Assembly: GCA_964447205.1 (NCBI GenBank)
Contig: CAYUSB010000004.1
Coordinates: forward strand, 51,799 to 115,798
Direction of reading: 5' to 3'
DNA from: an uncultured Myxococcaceae bacterium
GTDB taxonomy: Bacteria > Myxococcota_A > Polyangia > Polyangiales > Ga0077539
Length of the DNA: 64,000 nucleotides
Below, piece by piece: positions 1 through 15,824 of the stretch. How positions within the stretch are numbered: position 1 is the first letter of the stretch; each line of letters opens with the position of its first letter. The notes beneath the pieces are model-generated. The model made no database searches. It was not told where the DNA came from and was given only the letters and a program-made list of their open reading frames with translations. The position numbers and the translations under genes are program-made.

Positions 1-1401
1 GGCAGCAGCCCCCGTTGGTGCTGGTGACGGTGTAGTTCCACACGGCCGAGGACGACGAGAAGGTCGAGGCGCAGATCGTGGCGGTCCCGGTGGTCGTGGC
101 GGTGCAGGTGCACTGTGCCCCGAGGCTGCAGAAGTCGTCGTTGCGGCAGCTGCACGCCCCCGCCACCACCACGTACGGGTCGCCGCTGTAGGCCCCGCAG
201 GTCGAGATCGTGTAGGTGCGCCCGGCCACCACCGGGAAGGTGTACGTCCGCAGGCAGCGGCTGCCGCTCAGGCCGCTGCTCCCGCTCCCGCTGAAGCCCG
301 TGTTGCAGGTGGTGATCGAGCACTGGCACGCCCCGCCCACGCAGGTGGCCGAGGTCCCGCATGCGTTGCCGCAGCTCCCGCAGTGGTTGCGGTCGGTGCT
401 CGTCGACACGCACGACCCGCCGCAGAGGGCCTGTCCGGGCGGGCATCCGCAGCGCCCCGCCGTGCAGTCGATGCCCGGGGCGCAGGCGTTCCCGCACATC
501 CCGCAATGGGTGCGGTCGGTGGCGAGGTCGAAGCAGCCCAGGGTGCAGGCCGTCTGTCCCGGGGGGCACCCGCACAGTCCCGCGGAGCACACCTGTCCGG
601 ACGGGCAGGCCCGGTCGCAGCCCCCGCAGTGGGCCGAGCTGGTGGCGGTGTCGACGCATTGCCCGAGGCAGAGAGTGCCGTTGTTGGGGCACCCGCAGAC
701 CCCGGCGTTGCAGCCCTCCCCGGGCATACACGCCTGCCCGCAGGCCCCGCAGTGGGCGGTGTCGGACTGGAGGTTGAAGCAGAGCGAGGCGCCCCCGACC
801 TGACAGAAGCTCTGTCCCGTGGGGCAGGGCAGGGTGCAGACCCCCCCCACGCAGGTGAGGCCCGGGCCGCAGGCGTCGCCGCAGGCCCCGCAGTTTTCGT
901 CGTCGATCTGGAGGTCGACGCAGCGGCCCGGGAGCGTCCCGCAGCGGCTCAAGCTGCCCGCGCAGGGGGTCACGCAGCGGCCCCCGTCGCAGACCGTCCC
1001 GGTGGGGCAGGCCACGTCGCAGGCTCCGCAGTGGGCGGGGCTGGTCTGGGTGTCGACGCAGGCTCCGCCGCAGAGGGTCTCGGCGGGGGTGCACATCGGG
1101 CCCGTGTCGGCGGGGGCTGCGTCCTCGGGGGGCGCGTCTTCGAGGGCTGCGTCTTCGAGGGCCGCGTCTTCGACGGCCGCGTCTTCGGGGGCCGCGTCTT
1201 CGAGGCCCGCGTCTTCGAGGGCCGCGTCCTTGTCGGCGTCGAGGGCCGGGGTGTCGTCGAGGGGCGAGACATCGGCCGAGGCGTCGTCGAAGGGGTCGTC
1301 GGTGCCCGTGTTGCGTCCGCGGGCGCAGGCCGCGAGGTAGAGGCCCAAGGCCGCCACGAGGATGATGCTGCTCCGACTCTGCCCGGCGACTCGACCCATC
1401 G
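1..1401 (-). CDS. Cys-rich repeat lipoprotein (myxobacterial 'CGxCGxxC' disulfide-repeat family), 5'-complete, runs off window start
   Basis: Reverse complement from the ATG at 1401-1399 translates to MGRVAGQSRSSIILVAALGLYLAACARG..., a signal peptide with a lipobox. It is followed by (EDAAL)n acidic pentapeptide repeats encoded by 15-bp tandem repeats at ~1125-1245. Then come at least 8 repeats of C-x-x-C-V-D-x-Q-x-D-x-x-H-C-G-x-C-G-x-x-C-x-x-G-x-x-C. No stop before position 1, so the 3' end lies outside the window. The listed plus-strand ORFs 216-803, 383-1660 and 819-1340 are its antisense shadows. Confidence 0.6.
1125..1245. repeat. 15-bp tandem repeat (~8 units) encoding acidic pentapeptide (E/L)DAA(L/V) repeats on the minus strand
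   Basis: GCGTCTTCGAGGGC(C/T) units repeated head-to-tail, inside the Cys-rich lipoprotein gene. Confidence 0.7.
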
Positions 1402-2470: not shown

Positions 2471-3691
2471 TCACCCTCCCCGGGCCCGGCGGGCCGCGCT
2501 GGCCAGGGCCCGAACCTCGGCCGCCTCGTCGCCCGCGGCCACCGCGTCGAGGGCGAAGCGCACCTGCGGGGTCGCGGCCGTCTCGGCGGCCTGGGCCATC
2601 CGGGCGCACCCCTGGGCGTCGAGCCCGGGGCCGAGGGCCACCGCGGCGGCCACCCGGAGCTCGGCCTCGGCAGCGGGGGACTCGACCGCGTCCCAGAGGT
2701 CTTCGACCCGGAGGCCCGCGGTGCGGTAGTGCTGGGGGGCGGGGGCTCCGAGGGCCTGGAGGTCGGCGCGCCACGCGGCGAGGTCGCGGTCGTGGCGGCG
2801 CAGGGGGGTCACGTCGGCCGGGGACTGTCGGGTCGCGGCCACAGCCCGGGCCTCTTCGATGCGGGCCCCGAGGGCCTCGGCCCAGGTCCGTCGGGAGCGC
2901 GCGGGGTCGAAGCCCTCGGCCACCGGACCCGCAGCCCAACGGGTCCCGATCCACAGGGGAGGCTCCGCGGCCTGGTCGATCCAGAGCCCCCCGTCGTCGA
3001 CCCGCACGGCCGTGATGGCCCCGAGGGGGATCGTGCGTCGGCGCCACCACCAGCGCAGGTCCAGGGCGTCGAGGCCCACGGTCACCTGCTGGGGAAAGCC
3101 CACGACGATCAGGCCGACCGCACATAGCAGGACGGCCCCGAGGGCCGCAAAGACCCCGAAGAGCGGCCACCACACCTCAGCCACGGCCCCAGCGCCGAGG
3201 ACGAGTCCGGCCAACACCGCGCCGCGGTGTAGGGCCGTCGCGTCGGTGGGGAAGGCCATGACCCGCTGGGAGGCCCCGAGCCCCAGGGCGTGCAGGAGGG
3301 CGACCCCTTCGGCGGGCCCCGACACGGCGAGGCGTACGGCGTGGAGCTGACGGTGGTGCAGCATCACCTCCGTGTCGCCGCTCTGGGTGACCACGAACCC
3401 CCGCACGAGGTCGTGCGACGCGAAGGCCAGTCGGTCGCCGATGGAGAGCCCCGCGGGCGAGGCGGAGACGGGCGACGCGGCCGCGGGCCACTGCCGCCTG
3501 CGCCACGCCAGAAACCCCGCCAGGACCCCGCTCGCGGCCAGGATCCCGAGGCCCGCCGCGACCTGCCCGAGGACCAGGGTCAGGGCCGCGAAGATCCACA
3601 GGACGGTCAGGACGACCCGCTGGCTGAGGGAGATCGTCGGGGGCGTGAGGAGCCGGGCTCCGGGCAGGGGGGTCACGACCACGGGGGACAT
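2471..3691 (-). CDS. membrane protein with bacterial PH-like (YdbS/YdbT-type) domains, hypothetical
   Basis: Start ATG at 3691-3689 (MSPVVVTPLPG...). The N-terminal part of track ORF 2471..4540 is antisense to the GNAT gene and rejected. Two hydrophobic hairpins flank soluble segments (…VVLTVLWIFAALTLVLGQVAAGLGILAASGVLAGFLAWRRR… and …WPLFGVFAALGAVLLCAVGLIVVGF…), which is the typical bPH_2 topology. Confidence 0.45.
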   Translation of the reverse strand: MSPVVVTPLPGARLLTPPTISLSQRVVLTVLWIFAALTLVLGQVAAGLGILAASGVLAGFLAWRRRQWPAAASPVSASPAGLSIGDRLAFASHDLVRGFVVTQSGDTEVMLHHRQLHAVRLAVSGPAEGVALLHALGLGASQRVMAFPTDATALHRGAVLAGLVLGAGAVAEVWWPLFGVFAALGAVLLCAVGLIVVGFPQQVTVGLDALDLRWWWRRRTIPLGAITAVRVDDGGLWIDQAAEPPLWIGTRWAAGPVAEGFDPARSRRTWAEALGARIEEARAVAATRQSPADVTPLRRHDRDLAAWRADLQALGAPAPQHYRTAGLRVEDLWDAVESPAAEAELRVAAAVALGPGLDAQGCARMAQAAETAATPQVRFALDAVAAGDEAAEVRALASAARRARGG

Positions 3692-3762
3692 CGACCCCGC
3701 GGAGTCTACTCCCGTCTTGCGCCCGACGGCCCACCCGCGCCACCCTTCGGTCCACCTCCCCG

Positions 3763-4212
3763 ATGCGCTTCGAGCACCTCCCCTTCCATGCCCTGTCGTG
3801 CGACACCCTGTACGCCGTGATGGCCTTGCGGCAGCGGGTCTTCGTGGTCGAACAACGATGCCCCTACCTCGACGCCGACGGGGCCGACCCGCGGGCCACC
3901 CACCTCCTCGGGTACGACGCGGATGATGCCCTGGTGGCCTACGCCCGGCTCTTCGCGGCGGGCGAGAAGGTTGCGGGGGCCTGCGCCCTGGGGCGGGTCG
4001 TGACGGCCCCCGAGGTGCGGGGGACGGGGGTAGGGCGGCTCCTGGTGGCCGAGGCCCTGCGCTGCCTCGACGCGGCCTGGCCCCCCCGGGCCCGGGTGGT
4101 GATCTCGGCCCAGTCTCACCTCCAGCGTTTCTATGGCGACTTCGGCTTCGTCGGGGTGGGGGACGCGTACCTCGAGGACGACATCCCGCACCGCGAGATG
4201 GTGCGGGCGTGA
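3763..4212 (+). CDS. GNAT family N-acetyltransferase (ElaA-like)
   Basis: 149 aa. Acetyl-CoA binding motif A in ...RVVTAPEVRGTGVGRLLVAEAL... (R/Q-x-x-G-x-G/A). Overall ElaA-like order. The stop overlaps the next start (ATGA at 4209-4212). Confidence 0.8.
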   Translation: MRFEHLPFHALSCDTLYAVMALRQRVFVVEQRCPYLDADGADPRATHLLGYDADDALVAYARLFAAGEKVAGACALGRVVTAPEVRGTGVGRLLVAEALRCLDAAWPPRARVVISAQSHLQRFYGDFGFVGVGDAYLEDDIPHREMVRA

Positions 4213-4613
4213 GGGCCGAGGCGGGGGTTCTGATCGCCCGGGGTCTCGCGGCCTCGGCGGGGGTGGCCGAGGGGGTCTTGGCGATGTCGGCCGCCGACGC
4301 CCTCGGGCGGGTGGCCCAGGGGCAGCGGGTGGTCCTCGTGTTGCGCGACTTCGACCCCGAGGACGCCCCGGCGGTGCGGGCCTGTGTGGCCCTGGTGACC
4401 GCGGTGGGCGGACTCACCAGCGACGGGGCCATCGTGGCCCGGGTCCTGGGCATCCCCTGCGTGACGGGCTGCGGGGGGCTCGCTCCGACGGCCTCGGGCG
4501 AGGCCCTCCTGGCCCAGGGGGAGGGCCCGACGTTGACCATCCCCGCCGGGGCCCGGCTGCGGGTCGACGGGGCCGCGGGGCGGGTCGAGCACCTGCCCGA
4601 GGGCGATCAGTAG
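4209..4613 (+). CDS. stand-alone PEP-utilising enzyme mobile (phosphohistidine) domain protein, His->Asp variant
   Basis: 134 aa. ...VVLVLRDFDPEDAPAV..VALVTAVGGLTSDGAIVARVLGIPCVTGCG... matches the PF00391 core (GG.TSHAAI.ARE.GIP.VVG), but the phospho-accepting His is Asp (TSDGAIV). ATGA start/stop overlap with the GNAT gene. Confidence 0.65.
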   Translation: MRAEAGVLIARGLAASAGVAEGVLAMSAADALGRVAQGQRVVLVLRDFDPEDAPAVRACVALVTAVGGLTSDGAIVARVLGIPCVTGCGGLAPTASGEALLAQGEGPTLTIPAGARLRVDGAAGRVEHLPEGDQ

Positions 4614-5725
4614 ATCGACAGGGCCGTGCTGACCTCAGGCACGACCGTGGTCCCGATGTCGTTGAAGCGCATCCAGGCGACCCCGGCACGCACCTGCAAC
4701 GACATCCGCGTGGTCACCGGGAGCTCGCCGAGAAACCCGGCCCGGGCGAAGTTGCCGAGGATGTCGCGGGTCACGGTCCCGCCCGTGCGTCCAAAGACCC
4801 AGCCCCCGCCGACGTAGGCCCCGGCGTAGAGGGTGGGCATCACCCGCACCTCGGGCCCGATGGAGGCCACCAGGGCGCTGCGGGCCAGGACATCGACGGC
4901 GGCCCCGACCCCCAGATACTGGAGCGGGAAGTACCCGAGGAAGGTGTGTCCCCCGAACGAGGCTCTGGGGTTTTCGACCCCGTCGGAGGGCAGCCAGGCC
5001 CCCCCGACGCCCGCCGTGAGGTTGAGCCCCACCCGGTTGAGGGGGGCCCGGCCGATGCGGGCGTAGCGGTCGCCGGGGCCCTCGTAAATCCGTGCGCTGT
5101 GGGCGCTCAGGGCGTGCTCGGGGGTCAGAAGATGCAACGGCATGGCGAGGGTCTGGCCGTCTTGTTCGAGGAAGAGCTCCTCGTTGGGGTTGACCGCCAC
5201 CCAGCCGTCGTAGCGGGCCCCCTCGGAGCCCGCGAGCACGAAGACGATCACCGCCCCGGCCACCACCGCGGCCACGAGGATGGCCGCCCCCGCGCTGCCT
5301 GACCCGCCGCCGCCGCCGCCCCCGCCGCCCCCGCCGCCGCTGCGGCCGGAGCTGCCGCCCCCTCCGCCCGAGCGTCCGAGGTTGAGCCCGCCTCCGCCGA
5401 GTCCCCCGCCGAGTCCCCCGGTGCGGCCCCGGCTCGAGGCCAGCCGAGGCGGGGTGAGCCGCCAGCGGCCGCCGGAGGAGAAGCCGACAGGCTCCTGGAG
5501 CACGGTGTAGGCGGGGTAGAAGGTCACCCCGCGGGCGGGAGGGGCGTCGGACCCGCCGAGGCTCTGGGTGGCGCGAACGGCCTGCCAGCGGGCCTCGGGC
5601 GGGAGCTGGGACAGACGCAGGAGCTCGGATTGCGAGACGGTGTAGCTCCGCGACAGGCAGCCCCCCATGCTCAGGGTCAGGGGGATCGCCGCCGCTGCCA
5701 CCCATCGCCGCCATGTTTCCCGCAT
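4607..5725 (-). CDS. Gly-rich lipoprotein, hypothetical
   Basis: 372 aa. N-terminus MRETWRRWVAAAAIPLTLSMGGC has a lipobox. A long poly-Gly/Ser tract (GGGGSSGRSGGGGGGGGGGGGSGS) is encoded by the (CCG)n-rich stretch at 5280-5400. It is followed by a TM-like segment and a Gly/Ala-rich C-terminal domain. Confidence 0.5.
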   Translation of the reverse strand: MRETWRRWVAAAAIPLTLSMGGCLSRSYTVSQSELLRLSQLPPEARWQAVRATQSLGGSDAPPARGVTFYPAYTVLQEPVGFSSGGRWRLTPPRLASSRGRTGGLGGGLGGGGLNLGRSGGGGGSSGRSGGGGGGGGGGGGSGSAGAAILVAAVVAGAVIVFVLAGSEGARYDGWVAVNPNEELFLEQDGQTLAMPLHLLTPEHALSAHSARIYEGPGDRYARIGRAPLNRVGLNLTAGVGGAWLPSDGVENPRASFGGHTFLGYFPLQYLGVGAAVDVLARSALVASIGPEVRVMPTLYAGAYVGGGWVFGRTGGTVTRDILGNFARAGFLGELPVTTRMSLQVRAGVAWMRFNDIGTTVVPEVSTALSIY

Positions 5726-5835
5726 GGGGCCGGAGGGTAGCGTGCGCGGGCGGTCTTCACCAGCCCGGGCGGTGTGCTAGGAAAGGCCTCGCGCGGTGGG
5801 CGTCGTGGAGACGCCCGGGTCGCGGGAACAAGCAG

Positions 5836-6481
5836 CATGAAGTTCTTCATCGATACGGCAGACCTTGAGGAGATTCGCGCCGCCGCGGCGATGGGTCTCA
5901 TCGACGGGGTCACCACCAATCCCTCCCTGGTCGCCCGCACGGGGCGCAAGTACCTCGACGTGGTCCGCGAGATCTGCGAGGTCGTCGACGGCCCCATCTC
6001 CGCCGAGGTCCTGTCCACCGACTACGACGGCATGATGCGGGAGGCCCACGACTGGGCCAGGGTTCACACCAACGTGGTGGTGAAGCTCCCCCTGACCCTC
6101 GACGGGCTCCGGGCCACCCGCACCTGCACCAAGGAGGGCATCCGGGTCAACGTCACCCTGTGCTTCTCCGCCAATCAGGCCCTCCTCGCGGCCAAGGCCG
6201 GGGCCACCTACATCTCGCCCTTCGTCGGCCGCCTTGACGACATCTCCGAGGTGGGGATGGCCCTCATCGAGGACATCGTCGCCGTCTACGGCAACTACCG
6301 CTTCGGCACCGAGATCCTGGTGGCCAGCGTGCGCCACCCCGTCCACGTCCACCAGGCCGCCCTCCTCGGGGCCCACGTGTGCACGATCCCCTACAAGGTC
6401 ATCGCCCAACTGGCCCAGCATCCCCTCACCGACGCGGGCCTCGCGAAGTTCGTCGAGGACGCCAAGAAGATCCCGCGGTAG
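5836..6481 (+). CDS. tal: transaldolase / fructose-6-phosphate aldolase (short Tal/FsaA subfamily)
   Basis: Start at internal ATG 5836 ([14 protein letters not shown]...). Class I aldolase TIM-barrel; the Schiff-base lysine sits in ...NVVVKLPLT.... 215 aa, typical of archaeal/bacterial short transaldolases. Confidence 0.9.
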
Positions 6482-11442: not shown

Positions 11443-11563
11443 CGGCTCCGACCGGGGCACACTATGCCCCGGGGGCCCCCTGCGCAACCTCCGCGGCGGA
11501 GGGGGTGTGCGCAGAATGGGGGCGTGCGGCCCGCCCTGGGGTGCCGTAGAGTGGAGGCCCAAG

Positions 11564-13042
11564 ATGACCAACACCCAGCACGAAGCACCCGATCCGCGCG
11601 CCTCGCTGCGCGCTCCCTTCGCTCCCGGAGGTCCGTACGAGATCGACCGGGAGCGGGCCCGCAAGCTCCTGGAGGTGGCCCTCGGGCGGGGGGGCGACGC
11701 GGCCGACCTGTTCGCGGAGTTTGCCGTCGGAGCCGCCCTGGTCTTGGAGGAGGGCATCGTGAAGTCGGCCAGCCGGGGGGTCTCCCTCGGGGTCGGGATC
11801 CGCGTCCAGCGCGACTACGCCGCGGGCTACGCCTACACCGAAGACCTCACCTGGGAGGCCCTCGTGCGCTGCGCCGAGACCGCCGCCCAGATCGCCCACG
11901 CCTCGGCCCGGGCCGTGGTCGAGGTCACCGCGAGGACCCACCCCGAGCGCTACCTCGTGGAGTCCCCGAGCATCCTCGCCTCGGGCCTGGCCAAACGCGA
12001 CCTCCTCCTCGGGGCCGACCAGGCCGCTCGGGCCGCCGATCCGCGCGTCCACCGGGTCGAGGCGTCGCTGTCGGAGTCGTACCGGGAGGTCCTCATCGCC
12101 ACCAGCGACGGCAAGTTTCTGCGCGACGTCCAGCCCATGCTGCGCTTCGGGGTGCGGGCCATCGCCGAGGTCGGCGACCGTCGCCAGGCGGGCTCCTCGG
12201 GAGGCGGGGGCCGCACCGGGATGGAGTACTTCGACCGCCCCGGCAAGGGGGCCGACGACCACGCCCGCGAGGCCGTCCGGGTGGCCCTGGCCATGCTCGA
12301 GGCCCGCGAGGCCCCCGCCGGCGAGATGGAGGTGGTCCTGGCCCCGGGCGACAGCGGGATCCTCCTGCACGAGGCCGTGGGCCACGGCCTGGAGGCCGAC
12401 TTCAACCGCAAGGGGGTGAGCAACTACTCGGGCCGCGTGGGGTCGCCCGTGGCGAGCCCGCTCTGCACGGTGGTCGACCGGTCCGACCTCGACCACGAGC
12501 GAGGTTCGATCAACGTCGACGACGAGGGCAACACGGGCACCTCCACCACCCTCATCGAGGGGGGGATCCTGCGGGGGTACCTCCACGACACCTTCTCGGC
12601 CCGGCACTTCTCCCTCGGCCCCACGGGCAACGGACGCCGCGAGAGCTTCCGGTCGACCCCGCTGCCCCGGATGACCAACACCCTGCTCCTCAACGGCCCG
12701 CACAAGCCCGAGGAGATCGTGCGCTCGGTCAAGCGGGGCCTGTACGCCACCCGCTTCGGGGGGGGCCAGGTCGACATCGCCTCGGGCGATTTCGTCTTCT
12801 CCCTGAGCGAGGCCTACCTCATCGAGGACGGCAAGCTCACGACCCCCGTCAAGGACGTCAACCTCATCGGCAACGGCCCCGACGCCCTCGGCAAGGTGGT
12901 CATGCTCGGCGACGACATGGCCGTGAGCGACGGGATCTGGACCTGCGGCAAGGACGGCCAGAGCGTCCCGGTGGGGGTGGGGTGCCCGACCATCAAGATC
13001 TCGGCGATGACCGTAGGCGGCACCGCCGTACAGAAGGGCTGA
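11564..13042 (+). CDS. tldD: metalloprotease TldD (peptidase U62)
   Basis: ATG at 11564 (MTNTQHEAPD...) with GGAGG 8 nt upstream. Conserved TldD blocks HEAVGHGLEAD and ...GNGRRESF.... Confidence 0.9.
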   Translation: MTNTQHEAPDPRASLRAPFAPGGPYEIDRERARKLLEVALGRGGDAADLFAEFAVGAALVLEEGIVKSASRGVSLGVGIRVQRDYAAGYAYTEDLTWEALVRCAETAAQIAHASARAVVEVTARTHPERYLVESPSILASGLAKRDLLLGADQAARAADPRVHRVEASLSESYREVLIATSDGKFLRDVQPMLRFGVRAIAEVGDRRQAGSSGGGGRTGMEYFDRPGKGADDHAREAVRVALAMLEAREAPAGEMEVVLAPGDSGILLHEAVGHGLEADFNRKGVSNYSGRVGSPVASPLCTVVDRSDLDHERGSINVDDEGNTGTSTTLIEGGILRGYLHDTFSARHFSLGPTGNGRRESFRSTPLPRMTNTLLLNGPHKPEEIVRSVKRGLYATRFGGGQVDIASGDFVFSLSEAYLIEDGKLTTPVKDVNLIGNGPDALGKVVMLGDDMAVSDGIWTCGKDGQSVPVGVGCPTIKISAMTVGGTAVQKG

Positions 13043-13049
13043 CAGCGCG

Positions 13050-14399
13050 ATGGACCAGGACAGGCTTCAACAGATTTGTGACGACGTCCTCGGGCGCCTG
13101 CAGCGGGGCGGGGCGAGCGACGCCAAGGTCGTAGCCCGGGCTGGGCGCGACCTGTCGGTGCGGGTGCGTCTCAGCGAGGTCGAGCTCGTCGAGGAGGCGG
13201 CCACCCAATCGCTGGCGGTGCGGTGCTTCAAGGGCCAGCGGGTGGCCATGGCGAGCACGAGCGACCTCACCGCCGCGGGCCTCTCCCGGCTGGTCTCCGA
13301 CGCCCTCGAGCTCGCCGACCTGTCGCAAGACGACCCCTCCGCGGGATTGCCCGACCCGTCCGAGCTCACCCACACCTGGCCCGACCTCGGGCTCTACGAC
13401 CCGACCTGCGGCGACATCTCGGCCGCCGAGGCCGTGGTCCGGGCCCGGCGCTGCGAGGAGGCCTCGCGGGCCTTCGACCCCCGCATCACCAACTCCGAGG
13501 GCGGGGCCTTCGGGCGCACCGCCGGGGGCTTCGTGATGGCCACCTCGGGGGGCTTCCGCGGGGGCTACCAGGGCAGCTACGCCAGCGTCAGCGCCTCGCC
13601 CGTGGCCGCCGACGAGGGCGGCAAAAACCGCACGGCCAGCTACTGGTCGGCCCGGCGGTTTCTGTCGAAGCTCGAGTCCGAAGAGGCCGTCGGGCGCGAG
13701 GCCGGGCGGCGCACCGTGGCCCTCCTCGGGGCCCGCAAGGTTCCCACCCAGGAGGCCCCGGTGGTGTTCGACCCCGACGCGGCCCGGGCCCTCCTCGGGG
13801 CCTTCGCAGGCTGCATCACGGGCGACGCCGTGTACCGCCGGTCGAGCTACCTCCTCGACAAGATGGGCGAGTCGGTGGCCAGCGACCTCGTGTACATCAT
13901 CGACGACCCGCTCATCCCCGGGGCCCCGGGCTCGCGGCCCTTCGACGGCGACGGCCTCGCCACCCGGCGCAACGTGGTGGTGGAGGGAGGGGTCCTCAAG
14001 ACCTGGCTCCTCGACACGTACGGGGCCCGCAAGCTGGGGCTCCGCTCGACGGGCAACGCCGCGGGGGCCACGGGCACCGGGGCGGGGGTCAGCAATTTCT
14101 TCCTGGCCCCCGGGACCCAGACGCCCGCGGAGATCCTGCAGAGCACCCGGAAGGGGCTCTACGTGACGGGGATGATGGGGTTCGGGTTCAACGCCGTGAC
14201 GGGGGACTTCTCCCGCGGGGCCACCGGGTACTGGATCGAAGACGGGGCCCTGGCCTTCCCCGTGGCCGAGGTCACCATCAGCTTGAACTTCAAGGACTTG
14301 TTTGCTTCCATCGACGCGGTGGGCGACGACCTTGATATGAAGTCCTCGGTGGCCTCCCCGACAATTCGGGTGGCCCGGATGACCATCGCCGGCAGTTAA
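13050..14399 (+). CDS. pmbA: metalloprotease PmbA/TldE (peptidase U62)
   Basis: 449 aa. PmbA-type domain order, with a C-terminal ...GNAAGATGTGAGVSNFFLAPG... block. Directly follows tldD, as in the canonical TldD/TldE pair. Confidence 0.9.
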   Translation: MDQDRLQQICDDVLGRLQRGGASDAKVVARAGRDLSVRVRLSEVELVEEAATQSLAVRCFKGQRVAMASTSDLTAAGLSRLVSDALELADLSQDDPSAGLPDPSELTHTWPDLGLYDPTCGDISAAEAVVRARRCEEASRAFDPRITNSEGGAFGRTAGGFVMATSGGFRGGYQGSYASVSASPVAADEGGKNRTASYWSARRFLSKLESEEAVGREAGRRTVALLGARKVPTQEAPVVFDPDAARALLGAFAGCITGDAVYRRSSYLLDKMGESVASDLVYIIDDPLIPGAPGSRPFDGDGLATRRNVVVEGGVLKTWLLDTYGARKLGLRSTGNAAGATGTGAGVSNFFLAPGTQTPAEILQSTRKGLYVTGMMGFGFNAVTGDFSRGATGYWIEDGALAFPVAEVTISLNFKDLFASIDAVGDDLDMKSSVASPTIRVARMTIAGS

Positions 14400-14417: not shown

Positions 14418-15824
14418 ATGGGCCTCTCCCTCGACACCGCGGTGGCGCGTTTCCCTGAGCTTGGCGGCTCCGCCCAGGACGTGTTCGCCCTCGTGGAGGT
14501 GGCCGGGTTGGTCTCCTCGCGGCAGACCTCTCCCGGATACGCCCCGGGTCCCGCCCGCCCGCCGTTGTGTCTGGCCCTCTGCATCGACGCCTCGAGCTCA
14601 ATGCGGGGGCCGCGGTTTGCCCTGGCCCTCCAGGCCGCCCGCAACGTCGTGCACTCCCTCGGCCCCGACGACCGCTTCGCCGTGGTCACCTTCGACCGCA
14701 GCGCCCGGGTGGTCCTGCCCCCGACCACCCTCGATCCCGACGGGGTTCACGCGGCCTCCCGGGCCCTCGACCGACTCACCACGGGCATCGGGACCAACCT
14801 CGGGGCGGGCTGGCGCGAGGCGGCCGAAGGGCTCCTGCGGACCATGGTCCCGGGGGCGGTCCGGCGGGTCCTGCTCCTGACCGACGGGTACCCCTCGCGG
14901 GGCGAGACCCAACCCGAGGCCCTGCGGGCGATGGTGGCCGACGGGGCCGCTCGGGGCGTCGAGACCAGCCTCCTGGGTCTCGGAGACGGCATCGACGAGG
15001 GCCTCTGCACCACCCTGGCCCGCGCAGGGGAGGGACGGTTTCATTACCTCCGCGACGAGGCGGGTCTGGGCGACCTCGTGGCCGCCGAGGTCGAAGGGGC
15101 CCGGAGCCTCATCGCCCGCGATGTGGTGTTGAGCCTCGGGCTCGCGGCCCGGGTCGATCGGGCCGAGATCCTCCACCGGTTTCCCTGCCAGGCCGACGGG
15201 GACGGGGGCCGGACCCTGCGGGTGCGGGTCGGGTCTCTCACCCGCGACACCCCGCGGTCGATGCTCGTGCAGCTCCATGTGCGCGACGTGGCCACCGACA
15301 CCGTGCTCGGCACGGCCCAGGCCCAGGGCCTCGGGGTGCTCCCTGGCGTTGGGCGTACGACCCCCGCGGCCACGACCCGTCCCGGGTTCGCCCTGGGCGA
15401 CGCCCAGGAGCTCGGGCCCGGCGACCTGGTGATGGTGTCGCCTCCGGTGCACCTCACCCTCTCGGGCGACGGGGCCGACGGAGCCCGGGCCCGGGTGGCC
15501 TACGAGCTCCTGGCGTTGCGTACGGCGGCGGAGATCCGTTCGGCCTGGGACGCCCTCGACGGGGGCGACCGCGAGGCCATGCAGCGGCGCCTCGACCGGG
15601 CCCGCAAGCTGCGGAGGATCCTGGTCGAGCGGGGGCTGGTGAGCCCCGTCCGGCTCGAGGCCTTGCCCGACATCGAGGCCGTGCACCGGGCCATGACAGC
15701 CACCGAGGCCCAGTCCCGCGAGGCCCGGAGGCGCTTCGCGTCGTGGGCCCACAACACCCAGTCGAGCTTCGCCCCGGCGATGCGCACCGACGGCCTGAGC
15801 CCCATCAAGCCGTCGCGGGAGTAA
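14418..15824 (+). CDS. von Willebrand factor type A (VWA) domain protein
   Basis: MIDAS motif LCIDASSSMRG (DxSxS) with downstream T and D residues (…LLTDGYPS…). C-terminal helical region. Confidence 0.75.
   Translation: MGLSLDTAVARFPELGGSAQDVFALVEVAGLVSSRQTSPGYAPGPARPPLCLALCIDASSSMRGPRFALALQAARNVVHSLGPDDRFAVVTFDRSARVVLPPTTLDPDGVHAASRALDRLTTGIGTNLGAGWREAAEGLLRTMVPGAVRRVLLLTDGYPSRGETQPEALRAMVADGAARGVETSLLGLGDGIDEGLCTTLARAGEGRFHYLRDEAGLGDLVAAEVEGARSLIARDVVLSLGLAARVDRAEILHRFPCQADGDGGRTLRVRVGSLTRDTPRSMLVQLHVRDVATDTVLGTAQAQGLGVLPGVGRTTPAATTRPGFALGDAQELGPGDLVMVSPPVHLTLSGDGADGARARVAYELLALRTAAEIRSAWDALDGGDREAMQRRLDRARKLRRILVERGLVSPVRLEALPDIEAVHRAMTATEAQSREARRRFASWAHNTQSSFAPAMRTDGLSPIKPSRE

What the first reader, a model, noticed from the sequence alone, without database searches (positions are those of the whole stretch)
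4209..4613. Stand-alone PEP-utilising 'mobile domain' with phospho-His replaced by Asp, translationally coupled to a GNAT acetyltransferase
The 134-aa ORF is essentially only a PF00391 swivelling phosphohistidine domain, with the conserved GG-TSHAAI-ARE-GIP-V-G signature. The catalytic His is Asp (TSDGAIV), a potential constitutive phosphomimetic or a non-phosphorylatable decoy. Its start overlaps the GNAT stop (ATGA), which suggests co-expression.
Basis: partly seen in the sequence, partly recalled or inferred. Interest (0 to 1): 0.5.

Follow-up and report, generated by a model that had tools for sequence, protein, structure and literature searches.

The report
Stand-alone dikinase swivel domain, His→Asp
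This small gene encodes only the phosphate-carrying "swivel" domain of pyruvate phosphate dikinase with its catalytic histidine replaced by aspartate, and it belongs to a conserved, undescribed family in myxobacteria that probably acts as a non-catalytic regulator rather than an enzyme.

Summary
Window 4209-4613 (+) encodes a 134-aa protein that is a complete PPDK-type central (swivel) domain and nothing else: PF00391 E=1e-17, PDB PPDK E=5e-15, AF2 pLDDT 92.7, TM 0.83 to PPDK. Asp72 (GAC, 4422-4424) aligns with the catalytic His (TSH to TSD).

One detail is wrong. The start is GTG, so the overlap with the GNAT stop is GTGA, not ATGA.

The Asp is neither an error nor strain-specific. All orthologues (57-92% identity) carry it. 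So do 45 of 45 non-His members among the sampled proteins of 160 aa or less, from Myxococcales, Polyangiaceae and Labilithrix MAGs. In proteins over 400 aa from the same sample, His is kept in 120 of 123 domains. The catalytic loop stays invariant (GG-x-T-x-D-x-A…R…C), including the Thr that DUF299 kinases target in PPDK.

The GNAT link is lineage-specific. It is conserved, with the overlap, in about 7 related lineages. It is absent from the other PEPut subfamilies and from 79 of 80 ElaA-like GNAT loci.

Best reading: a PPDK-derived pseudo-phosphocarrier that works by binding a partner, with Asp supplying a fixed negative charge. The partner is unknown. It is a new variant of a known kind, of moderate interest.

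The parts
4209..4613 (+). Gene for the 134-aa stand-alone PPDK-type central (swivel) domain protein. GTG start, TAG stop.
   Evidence: ORF list. PF00391 E=1e-17. PPDK central domain E=5e-15 over residues 4-126. AF2 pLDDT 92.7. Foldseek TMq 0.83 to PPDK. GC3 0.96. dN/dS 0.2-0.7 against orthologues.
4407..4442 (+). Catalytic-loop equivalent GGLTSDGAIVAR (residues 67-78). G67, G68, T70, A74 and R78 are invariant in the stand-alone family.
   Evidence: Alignment to PPDK GGMTSHAAVVAR. Column counts over 47 stand-alone proteins.
4422..4424 (+). Codon GAC for Asp72, at the position of the phospho-accepting His of PPDK (the TSH motif). It is one transversion away from His CAC.
   Evidence: Sequence. 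HMMER alignment. D in 35 and H in 12 of 47 stand-alone homologues. D in 45 of 45 non-His domains in proteins of 160 aa or less.
4416..4418 (+). Codon for Thr70, two residues before Asp72. It is equivalent to the regulatory Thr of the PPDK/PEPS TSH motif and is invariant in all 47 stand-alone homologues.
   Evidence: The role of this Thr in PPDK/PEPS is described in PMC9009071.
3763..4212 (+). Upstream ElaA/PA0115-family GNAT acetyltransferase gene (149 aa).
   Evidence: Pfam Acetyltransf_10/7/1. NCBIfam PRK10314 122 bits, below the 171 cut-off. PDB 1xeb 4e-30 and ElaA 5z6n 1e-29. Conserved directly upstream in L001, L002, L003, L008, L032, L034 and L040.
4209..4212 (+). GTGA overlap. The GTG start of the swivel-domain gene overlaps the TGA stop of the GNAT gene.
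   Evidence: Sequence. The same GTGA junction occurs in L001, L002, L032-34 and L008, with an 11-nt gap in L003.
4607..5725 (-). Convergent 372-aa Gly-rich gene with no Pfam match. Its stop overlaps the end of the swivel-domain gene by 7 nt. It is a syntenic neighbour and not shown to be functionally linked.
   Evidence: The same convergent overlap occurs in L002, L003 and L032. tblastn hits in L001-L003 and in L040.

Best explanation
**Shown.**
- The gene encodes a complete, independently folding copy of the central phosphocarrier domain of pyruvate phosphate dikinase, cut at the domain boundaries.
- The phospho-accepting His is replaced by Asp.
- It belongs to a conserved family of proteins of about 125-135 aa found in Myxococcota-type genomes.
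- In this family Asp is the rule, and the rest of the catalytic loop is invariant, including the regulatory Thr, the Arg and a Cys.
- Because the His is gone and no nucleotide-binding or PEP-binding domain is attached or nearby, it cannot act as a dikinase phosphocarrier.

**Inferred.** It is a pseudo-phosphocarrier, meaning a regulatory or adaptor protein that still presents the catalytic loop to a partner.
- Asp would provide a permanent negative charge where the phospho-imidazole would sit.
- Likely partners are proteins that normally read this loop. These are the catalytic domains of a full-length PPDK or PEP synthase (inhibition in trans) or a DUF299-type PPDK/PEPS regulatory kinase-phosphatase, which targets the Thr two residues upstream.
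- The ancestry is PPDK, not PEP synthase, Enzyme I or rifampin phosphotransferase.

**The GNAT.** In the window's own lineage the gene became translationally coupled to an ElaA-type GNAT. This is a lineage-specific operon arrangement rather than a defining feature of the family.
For: **Domain identity and His to Asp.**

**PPDK ancestry.**
- TIGR01828 scores 2.3e-19, ahead of PEPS and RPH.
- The protein is 42-47% identical to the central domains of long PPDK-type proteins, including the 891-aa three-domain P0016.

**Conservation of Asp.**
- Orthologues at 92, 67 and 57% identity all carry TSD.
- The Myxococcales/Polyangiaceae loci L004-L010 also carry it.
- Thirty-five of 47 stand-alone homologues have D and 12 have H.
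- In 299 sampled domains, proteins of 160 aa or less show D 45 and H 41. Proteins of 161-400 aa show H 86 of 90. Proteins over 400 aa show H 120, D 2, E 1.
- Seven non-His residues occur outside the small proteins. Five are acidic (3 D, 2 E); the other two are N and Q.

**Loop invariance.** G67, G68, T70, A74, R78, C84 and D52 are invariant across 47 proteins that are down to about 31% identical to the window protein.

**Genuine complete genes.** The genes lie inside long contigs of up to 689 kb, with flanking genes on both sides.

**Selection.** dN/dS is below 1 in all 15 pairwise comparisons, range 0.21-0.70.

**Precedent for a non-catalytic swivel domain.**
- The pyruvate-kinase ECTD/PEPut autoinhibits PK, and H539A and T537A give no phenotype (PMC11834443).
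- In B. subtilis PykA, Asp substitutions in the TSH motif, used there as phosphomimics, altered replication phenotypes and PykA activity (PMC9009071).
Against: - No partner has been identified.
- Gene neighbourhood differs between subfamilies: GNAT; a TM/Zn-ribbon protein; solitary; or DsbA with an alpha/beta hydrolase. Context therefore gives no consistent functional clue.
- The presence of full-length PPDK/PEPS or DUF299 in the same genomes could not be checked.
- Asp is geometrically a poor mimic of phospho-His.
- The uniform Asp could partly reflect a single ancestral substitution rather than repeated selection.
- dN/dS reaches 0.5-0.7 in some pairs, and the C-terminal third is poorly conserved.
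- There are no expression data.
Confidence: 0.5

Rival explanations
1. Aspartyl-phosphate carrier. Asp72 is a real phospho-acceptor (an acyl phosphate, as in receiver domains). The small protein would shuttle phosphate between separately encoded donor and acceptor proteins.
For: - The entire phosphotransfer loop is retained apart from the nucleophile.
- Longer proteins exist with a PPDK_N ATP-grasp domain plus an Asp-bearing swivel domain: L016, P0058 and P0093. In these a dead carrier next to an apparently intact ATP-binding domain would be odd.
Against: - No ATP-grasp or PEP-binding partner gene lies next to any stand-alone member examined.
- No case of Asp replacing His as nucleophile in this fold came up in the literature searches.
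- L016, P0058 and P0093 all lack a recognisable PEP-utilizers_C domain, which fits degeneration.
Confidence: 0.08
2. GNAT-centred function. The swivel domain is a subunit, specificity adaptor or substrate of the co-translated ElaA-type acetyltransferase, for example through N-terminal acetylation.
For: - The 4-nt GTGA overlap and adjacency are conserved in about 7 related lineages whose swivel-domain proteins are 57-92% identical to the window's.
- The two genes stay together while flanking genes change: T6SS genes upstream in L001, the glyS region in L032.
Against: - Other subfamilies of the same protein have no GNAT nearby.
- Seventy-nine of 80 ElaA-like GNAT loci, at 44-61% identity, have no PEPut gene within the 2.5-kb flanks fetched. 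Many of those flanks are shorter because the contig ends.
- No GNAT-PEPut fusions appear among the hits.
- The protein has no Lys, so Lys acetylation is impossible and only the N-terminal amine could be modified.
Confidence: 0.15
3. Functionless relic. The gene is a decaying remnant of an ancestral ppdK gene.
For: - L010 shows an intermediate form: the C-terminal half of the nucleotide-binding domain plus a TSD swivel domain, directly downstream of glyS.
- glyS lies about 2.8 kb upstream in L032-34.
- Selection is relatively relaxed compared with the GNAT.
Against: - Intact ORFs of constant length occur in dozens of 90%-identity clusters spanning 31-92% identity.
- Motifs are invariant, and the domain boundaries are precise.
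- GC3 is 0.96, and dN/dS is below 1 in every pair.
Confidence: 0.05
4. Sequencing error or strain-specific mutation of a His codon.
For: His (CAC) to Asp (GAC) is a single-base change.
Against: Asp is present in every orthologue and in 45 independent small-protein clusters from different assemblies.
Confidence: 0.01

Closest known systems
Central phosphohistidine (swivel) domain of pyruvate phosphate dikinase (C. symbiosum PPDK 1dik/1kbl; isolated domain 2fm4)
   Same: - Same fold (TMq 0.83, rmsd about 1.5 A).
- Same boundaries as the 128-residue isolated domain solved by NMR.
- 30-36% identity to PDB PPDKs and 42-47% to metagenomic PPDK-type proteins.
- Same ASxG, ED, GGxT-x-x-AAxxAR and GxPC motifs.
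   Different: - It is encoded on its own, with no flanking linker helices.
- It has no nucleotide-binding or PEP-binding domain.
- The catalytic His is replaced by Asp.
Extra C-terminal PEPut/ECTD domain of Bacillota pyruvate kinase (B. subtilis PykA; G. stearothermophilus 2e28)
   Same: - It is a swivel domain used for regulation rather than phosphotransfer.
- The His and the Thr are each dispensable for ECTD autoinhibition (PMC11834443).
- Structural match E=2.9e-7.
- Some Clostridia-type PKs also carry TSD.
   Different: - The PK domain is fused to its target enzyme, whereas this one is free-standing.
- This protein is closer in sequence to PPDK than to the PK domain: tblastn E about 1e-15 to 1e-19 with long PPDK-type proteins, against 6e-9 with a PK.
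- In B. subtilis the motif is TSH.
Pseudo-receiver domains and other pseudoenzymes or pseudo-phosphocarriers
   Same: The concept is shared: a phosphotransfer fold that has lost its phospho-acceptor yet is conserved and presumably signals by binding. A review of pseudo-receivers, PMC12632262, turned up; only its abstract was read.
   Different: The fold and ancestry are unrelated. This is an analogy only.
ElaA / PA0115 GNAT family (5z6n, 1xeb), for the upstream gene
   Same: E=1e-29 to 4e-30 over the full length.
   Different: - It scores below the NCBIfam equivalog cut-off (122 against 171 bits).
- I did not establish the substrate of ElaA. The papers listed were not read beyond their abstracts.

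Membership tests
PF00391 PEP-utilising enzyme mobile (swivel) domain | Profile match above the curated gathering score | tested here: met
   63.9 bits against a cut-off of 23.1, E=1.1e-17.
PF00391 PEP-utilising enzyme mobile (swivel) domain | Swivel-domain fold | tested here: met
   AF2 pLDDT 92.7. Foldseek against PPDK central domains gives TMq 0.83 and rmsd 1.4-1.8 A.
PF00391 PEP-utilising enzyme mobile (swivel) domain | Phospho-accepting His in the GG-x-T-S-H loop | tested here: not met
   Asp72 aligns with the His. There is no other His within the aligned domain.
Pyruvate phosphate dikinase (TIGR01828) | Three-domain architecture: PPDK_N ATP-grasp, swivel domain, PEP-utilizers_C TIM barrel | tested here: not met
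   - 68.9 bits against a cut-off of 843.
- Only profile positions 385-500 are matched.
- No PPDK_N or PEP-utilizers_C sequence occurs in the window.
Pyruvate-kinase ECTD/PEPut-type regulatory swivel domain | Fused to the C-terminus of a pyruvate kinase | tested here: not met
   The ORF is free-standing, and there is no PK sequence in the window.
Pyruvate-kinase ECTD/PEPut-type regulatory swivel domain | Regulates a partner enzyme without His phosphorylation | not testable with these tools
   This needs biochemistry. The precedent is in PMC11834443.
Substrate or pseudosubstrate of DUF299 (PDRP/PSRP) regulators | Thr two residues N-terminal to the (phospho)His position | tested here: met
   T70-S71-D72. 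Thr is invariant in 47 of 47 stand-alone homologues.
Substrate or pseudosubstrate of DUF299 (PDRP/PSRP) regulators | A DUF299 (PF03618) protein encoded in the same genome | not testable with these tools
   Only 64 kb of the genome is available, and the Pfam scans covered only the genes between positions 216 and 15821.
ElaA-family GNAT (upstream gene) | Full-length similarity to ElaA/PA0115 and GNAT Pfam domains | tested here: met
   PDB 1xeb 3.8e-30 and 5z6n 1.4e-29. Acetyltransf_10/7/1.
ElaA-family GNAT (upstream gene) | NCBIfam PRK10314 equivalog cut-off | tested here: not met
   122.2 bits against a cut-off of 171. It is a family member but not an equivalog.

The most novel reading that the evidence does not exclude
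Asp72 is not a dead residue but a working nucleophile. On this reading, the stand-alone proteins, and the longer ATP-grasp plus Asp-swivel proteins such as L016, P0058 and P0093, carry phosphate as an aspartyl phosphate. That would be a His-to-Asp switch of carrier chemistry within the dikinase swivel fold. A milder novel reading is that the family is a natural phospho-His mimic that regulates PPDK/PEPS or their DUF299 regulator in trans. I put that reading at about 0.2-0.25.
Probability: 0.07. Interest if true: 0.8.

Novelty: new variant of a known kind. Interest (0 to 1): 0.45.

Why it matters
**The swivel domain and its catalytic His.** The swivel domain is a textbook case of a tethered phosphohistidine carrier. 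Here dozens of genomes keep the domain alone, with its catalytic loop intact except for a His-to-Asp change. That suggests the loop is read by other proteins as a signal.

**What experiments it would enable.** If the partner is PPDK, PEP synthase or their DUF299 regulator, the family would be a genetically encoded mimic of the phosphorylated state. It would control the PEP-pyruvate node in myxobacteria, and it would be a ready-made tool for trapping those complexes.

**Annotation.** JGI records name these proteins 'pyruvate, orthophosphate dikinase', and NCBI records call them 'hypothetical protein'. They are not dikinases, so metabolic reconstructions that count them as PPDK are wrong.

Tried and rejected
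1. **Lys-free composition as a sign of escape from the GNAT.** All 8 members of the GNAT-linked clade have no Lys, while the other clades have 2-11 (and the L008 sequence). The window's predicted proteome is only 1.3% Lys, so P(0 in 134 aa) is 0.18. Two other predicted proteins in the window (372 aa and 318 aa) also lack Lys. Not significant.
2. **Promoter and terminator scan of 3300-5900.** Nothing was found on either strand. This is uninformative in a 72% GC genome with non-sigma-70-like promoters.
3. **Neighbour-joining tree of 299 domain instances.** Asp-type proteins fall in several adjacent blocks interleaved with long His-type proteins. The domain is too short for a reliable answer on one origin or several.
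4. **ppdK remnant idea from glyS synteny.** L010 has glyS directly upstream, and L032-34 have it about 2.8 kb upstream. L001 has T6SS genes there instead, and no glyS was called among the window's upstream genes. That glyS-ppdK adjacency is common in other bacteria is my recollection only and was not tested.
5. **Literature searches** for stand-alone or His-to-Asp swivel domains found nothing relevant. Papers on ElaA were listed but not read.
6. **AFDB Foldseek library.** Not available, so UniProt or cultured-organism members could not be listed.
7. **Other dikinase or PK parts in the window.** None found.
8. **GNAT-side survey.** This was done to test whether the pairing is general, and it is not.

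Full report

Yes.
- The window has an ORF at 4209-4613 on the + strand, 134 aa, starting with GTG.
- GC by codon position is 0.82/0.57/0.96, the pattern of genuine genes in this 72% GC sequence.
- It matches Pfam PF00391 at 63.9 bits, E=1.1e-17, against a gathering score of 23.1.
- Among NCBIfam models the best is pyruvate phosphate dikinase TIGR01828 (2.3e-19, profile positions 385-500). This is ahead of PEP synthase (1e-13) and rifampin phosphotransferase (8e-7). All are far below their whole-protein cut-offs, because only the central domain is present.
- Against PDB sequences the best match is the isolated PPDK phosphoryl-carrier domain 2fm4 (E=4.8e-15). It is aligned over residues 4-126 of 134, so the ORF is the whole domain cut at its natural boundaries.
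- That alignment puts GGLTSDGAIVAR on GGMTSHAAVVAR. Asp72 (GAC, 4422-4424) occupies the position of the phospho-accepting His, and Thr70 that of the Thr in the TSH motif.
- An AF2 model built on 47 homologues is confident (pLDDT 92.7, pTM 0.88). It superposes on PPDK central domains at TMq 0.83 and rmsd 1.4-1.8 A.

The junction with the upstream gene is GTGA (GTG start 4209-4211, TGA stop 4210-4212), not ATGA. The 'ARE' element of the signature is ARV here.

**2. Is the Asp an accident?**

No.
- Word-indexed search found orthologues at 92, 67 and 57% identity, all with TSD.
- A scan of species-representative genomes found further stand-alone TSD proteins in Myxococcales, Polyangiaceae and Polyangiales MAGs (L004-L010).
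- A profile search of 1.8 billion cluster representatives, followed by a second profile search of the 5.8-billion-protein set, found dozens of clusters of 124-138-aa proteins with GG[LI]T[SG]DAAI.
- Where sources name them, they are 'hypothetical protein [Myxococcales bacterium]', '[Labilithrix sp.]', or automatically 'pyruvate, orthophosphate dikinase'.
- In an alignment of 47 stand-alone proteins, position 72 is D in 35 and H in 12. G67, G68, T70, A74, R78, C84 and D52 are invariant.
- In a sample of 299 domain instances, the residue at this position depends on protein length:

| Protein length | H | D | Other |
|---|---|---|---|
| 160 aa or less | 41 | 45 | none |
| 161-400 aa | 86 | 1 | E 1, N 1, Q 1 |
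| over 400 aa | 120 | 2 | E 1 |

- Many of the short H entries carry the motif typical of full-length PPDK (GGMTSHAAV) and come from short contigs. They are probably gene fragments.
- So Asp is tightly associated with the stand-alone architecture. When His is lost in the small proteins, the replacement is always Asp.
- The sample was retrieved with a profile built from Asp-type proteins, so it is not an unbiased census.
- These are complete genes. They lie inside contigs of up to 689 kb with genes on both sides.
- Pairwise dN/dS within the window's clade is 0.21-0.70. The adjacent GNAT gives 0.09-0.47. This indicates purifying selection that is weaker than on the GNAT and concentrated in the N-terminal two-thirds.

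**3. Context.**
- The upstream gene (3763-4212) is a 149-aa GNAT of the ElaA/PA0115 family.
- The GNAT-swivel pair is conserved in the window, L001, L002, L003, L008, L032-34 and L040. The same GTGA overlap occurs in the window, L001, L002, L032-34 and L008. L003 has an 11-nt gap, and the L040 junction was not read.
- Flanking genes differ between these loci: T6SS genes upstream in L001, the glyS region in L032.
- The pairing is not a property of either family:
  - In Polyangiaceae/Labilithrix-type genomes the swivel gene instead overlaps by 4 nt an upstream gene of about 283 aa. That protein has two predicted TM helices, a Cys-rich Zn-ribbon-like segment (weak Prok-RING_1 hit) and an acidic tail. 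A 3-hydroxyacyl-CoA dehydrogenase gene follows directly in L004-L007 and lies 2-2.3 kb downstream in L027-L031.
  - In a third group the gene stands alone between a Dus gene and a peptidase gene on the opposite strand.
  - His-type stand-alone relatives sit between DsbA and an alpha/beta hydrolase.
  - From the GNAT side, 80 metagenomic loci encoding ElaA-like GNATs (44-78% identity) were fetched with flanks of up to 2.5 kb. Only the closest one (L040, 78%) has a swivel gene.
- Nothing dikinase-related lies in the rest of the window. The neighbours scanned are an aldo-keto reductase, a transaldolase/FSA, an AAA_28 ATPase, VanY, a Ser/Thr kinase and a TldD/PmbA pair.

**4. What it most likely does.**

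Shown:
- It is a PPDK-derived central domain.
- It lacks the His and lacks both catalytic domains.
- It has been conserved for a long time with its catalytic loop frozen.

Inferred:
- If the loop were merely structural it would drift. Its invariance, together with the exclusive use of Asp, argues that the loop is still recognised by a partner and that a negative charge there matters.
- From my own knowledge, not tested here: the plant regulator acts on the His-phosphorylated form. If so, a T-S-D loop is what such a regulator, or the dikinase catalytic domains, would see as the charged state.
- I therefore favour a pseudo-phosphocarrier that acts by binding, either as an inhibitor or decoy of a dikinase or as a pseudosubstrate of its regulator. 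Confidence is about 0.5 for the general mechanism and much less for any specific partner.
- A precedent for non-catalytic use of this fold is the pyruvate-kinase extra C-terminal domain. It autoinhibits the enzyme, and H539A and T537A variants behave like wild type (PMC11834443). In B. subtilis PykA, Asp substitutions in TSH, used there as phosphomimics, gave altered replication phenotypes and affected PykA activity (PMC9009071).

**5. Rivals.**
- (a) *Aspartyl-phosphate carrier (0.08).* It cannot be excluded, and it is made slightly more interesting by longer proteins that combine a PPDK_N ATP-grasp domain with an Asp-bearing swivel domain (L016, P0058, P0093). However, no donor or acceptor genes accompany the stand-alone proteins.
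- (b) *GNAT-centred role (0.15).* It is supported by the conserved overlap in one lineage and undermined by the two-sided survey above. Lys acetylation of the protein is impossible because it has no Lys. The Lys-free state is not itself significant in this Lys-poor proteome (P=0.18).
- (c) *Functionless relic of ppdK (0.05).* L010 looks like an intermediate: half of the nucleotide-binding domain plus a TSD swivel domain, directly after glyS. The conservation argues against decay.
- (d) *Sequencing error or private mutation (about 0.01).* Refuted.

**6. Comparison with what is known, and novelty.**
- By fold and profile it is a PF00391 domain. It fails the feature that defines the function of that domain (the His), and it fails PPDK membership outright.
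- It works most like the regulatory PK ECTD, but it is free-standing and closer in sequence to PPDK.
- No curated NCBIfam model covers it. No paper on stand-alone or His-to-Asp swivel domains was found in the searchable library. Public names are 'hypothetical protein' or a wrong 'pyruvate, orthophosphate dikinase'.
- I rate it a new variant of a known kind. A specialist would find a conserved, naturally 'phosphomimetic' free swivel domain moderately surprising. The function is open, so interest is 0.45.

**7. Limits.**
- The organism is unknown. No identical sequence was in the species-representative genome set, and the closest is a 92% protein from a Logan assembly.
- The rest of the genome could not be inspected for PPDK, PEPS or DUF299.
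- The AFDB fold library was offline.
- The Asp-bearing pyruvate kinases were found with a search pattern that required Asp, so they say nothing about frequency.

Noticed in passing
L011-L015, L017-L026 (match regions around 6001-6250 in most loci): Pyruvate kinases of Clostridia-type MAGs (Fermentithermobacillaceae, Peptococcaceae, Syntrophomonadaceae, Clostridium thermobutyricum). Their C-terminal PEPut/ECTD domain carries GGLTSD[GA]AI, so His is replaced by Asp in the TSH motif. They were found only because the scan pattern demanded Asp, so their frequency is unknown.
   Followed up: partly
L016:4729-7305 (candidate division WS6): An 858-aa protein with a good PPDK_N ATP-grasp domain (E=6e-61) and a swivel domain carrying TSD. 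About 340 C-terminal residues give no PEP-utilizers_C hit. It is either a dikinase-like enzyme with Asp at the carrier position or a degenerate one.
   Followed up: partly
P0058 (785 aa), P0093 (700 aa), P0128 (616 aa), P0040 (263 aa), P0090 (382 aa): Longer proteins with Asp or Glu at the His position. P0058 and P0093 have PPDK_N plus a swivel domain and no PEP-binding domain. P0093 also has RCC1 repeats at its N-terminus.
   Followed up: partly
P0010 (1832 aa), P0012 (2648 aa), P0013, P0015, P0022, P0033 and others: Giant proteins with 3-6 tandem PEP-utilizers domains, each with a GGITCHAAI-type motif (Cys in place of the Ser before the His). P0010 has five PF00391 stretches. Their function is not obvious.
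   Followed up: no
L010:5473-6441 (Polyangiales MAG): Directly downstream of glyS lies an ORF (322 codons stop-to-stop) that aligns to PPDK residues of roughly 234-548. It comprises the C-terminal half of the nucleotide-binding domain plus a swivel domain with TSD. A Ser/Thr kinase with a PEGA domain follows. It is a possible evolutionary intermediate between ppdK and the stand-alone family.
   Followed up: partly
L027-L031 about 5111-6004; L004:5097-5924; L005, L006, L007, L009 upstream genes: A conserved protein of about 280 aa lies upstream of the Polyangiaceae/Labilithrix-type swivel genes, overlapping them by 4 nt in L027-L030. It has a basic N-terminus, two predicted TM helices, a CxxC…CxC Zn-ribbon-like segment (weak Prok-RING_1 hit) and a strongly acidic tail. 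It has no Pfam family.
   Followed up: partly
window 4607-5725 (-): A 372-aa Gly-rich, Lys-free protein with no Pfam match. It is convergent with the swivel gene and overlaps it by 7 nt. The overlap is conserved in L002, L003 and L032.
   Followed up: no
window 216-803 (+) and overlapping frames, 1-2400: A 195-aa Pro/Gln-rich repetitive ORF with GC3 0.95 and no Pfam hit. It lies at the window edge, in a region with several long overlapping ORFs typical of very high GC DNA.
   Followed up: no
window 11507-14399 (+): An adjacent TldD/PmbA metallopeptidase gene pair, followed by a VWA-domain protein (14418-15821).
   Followed up: no
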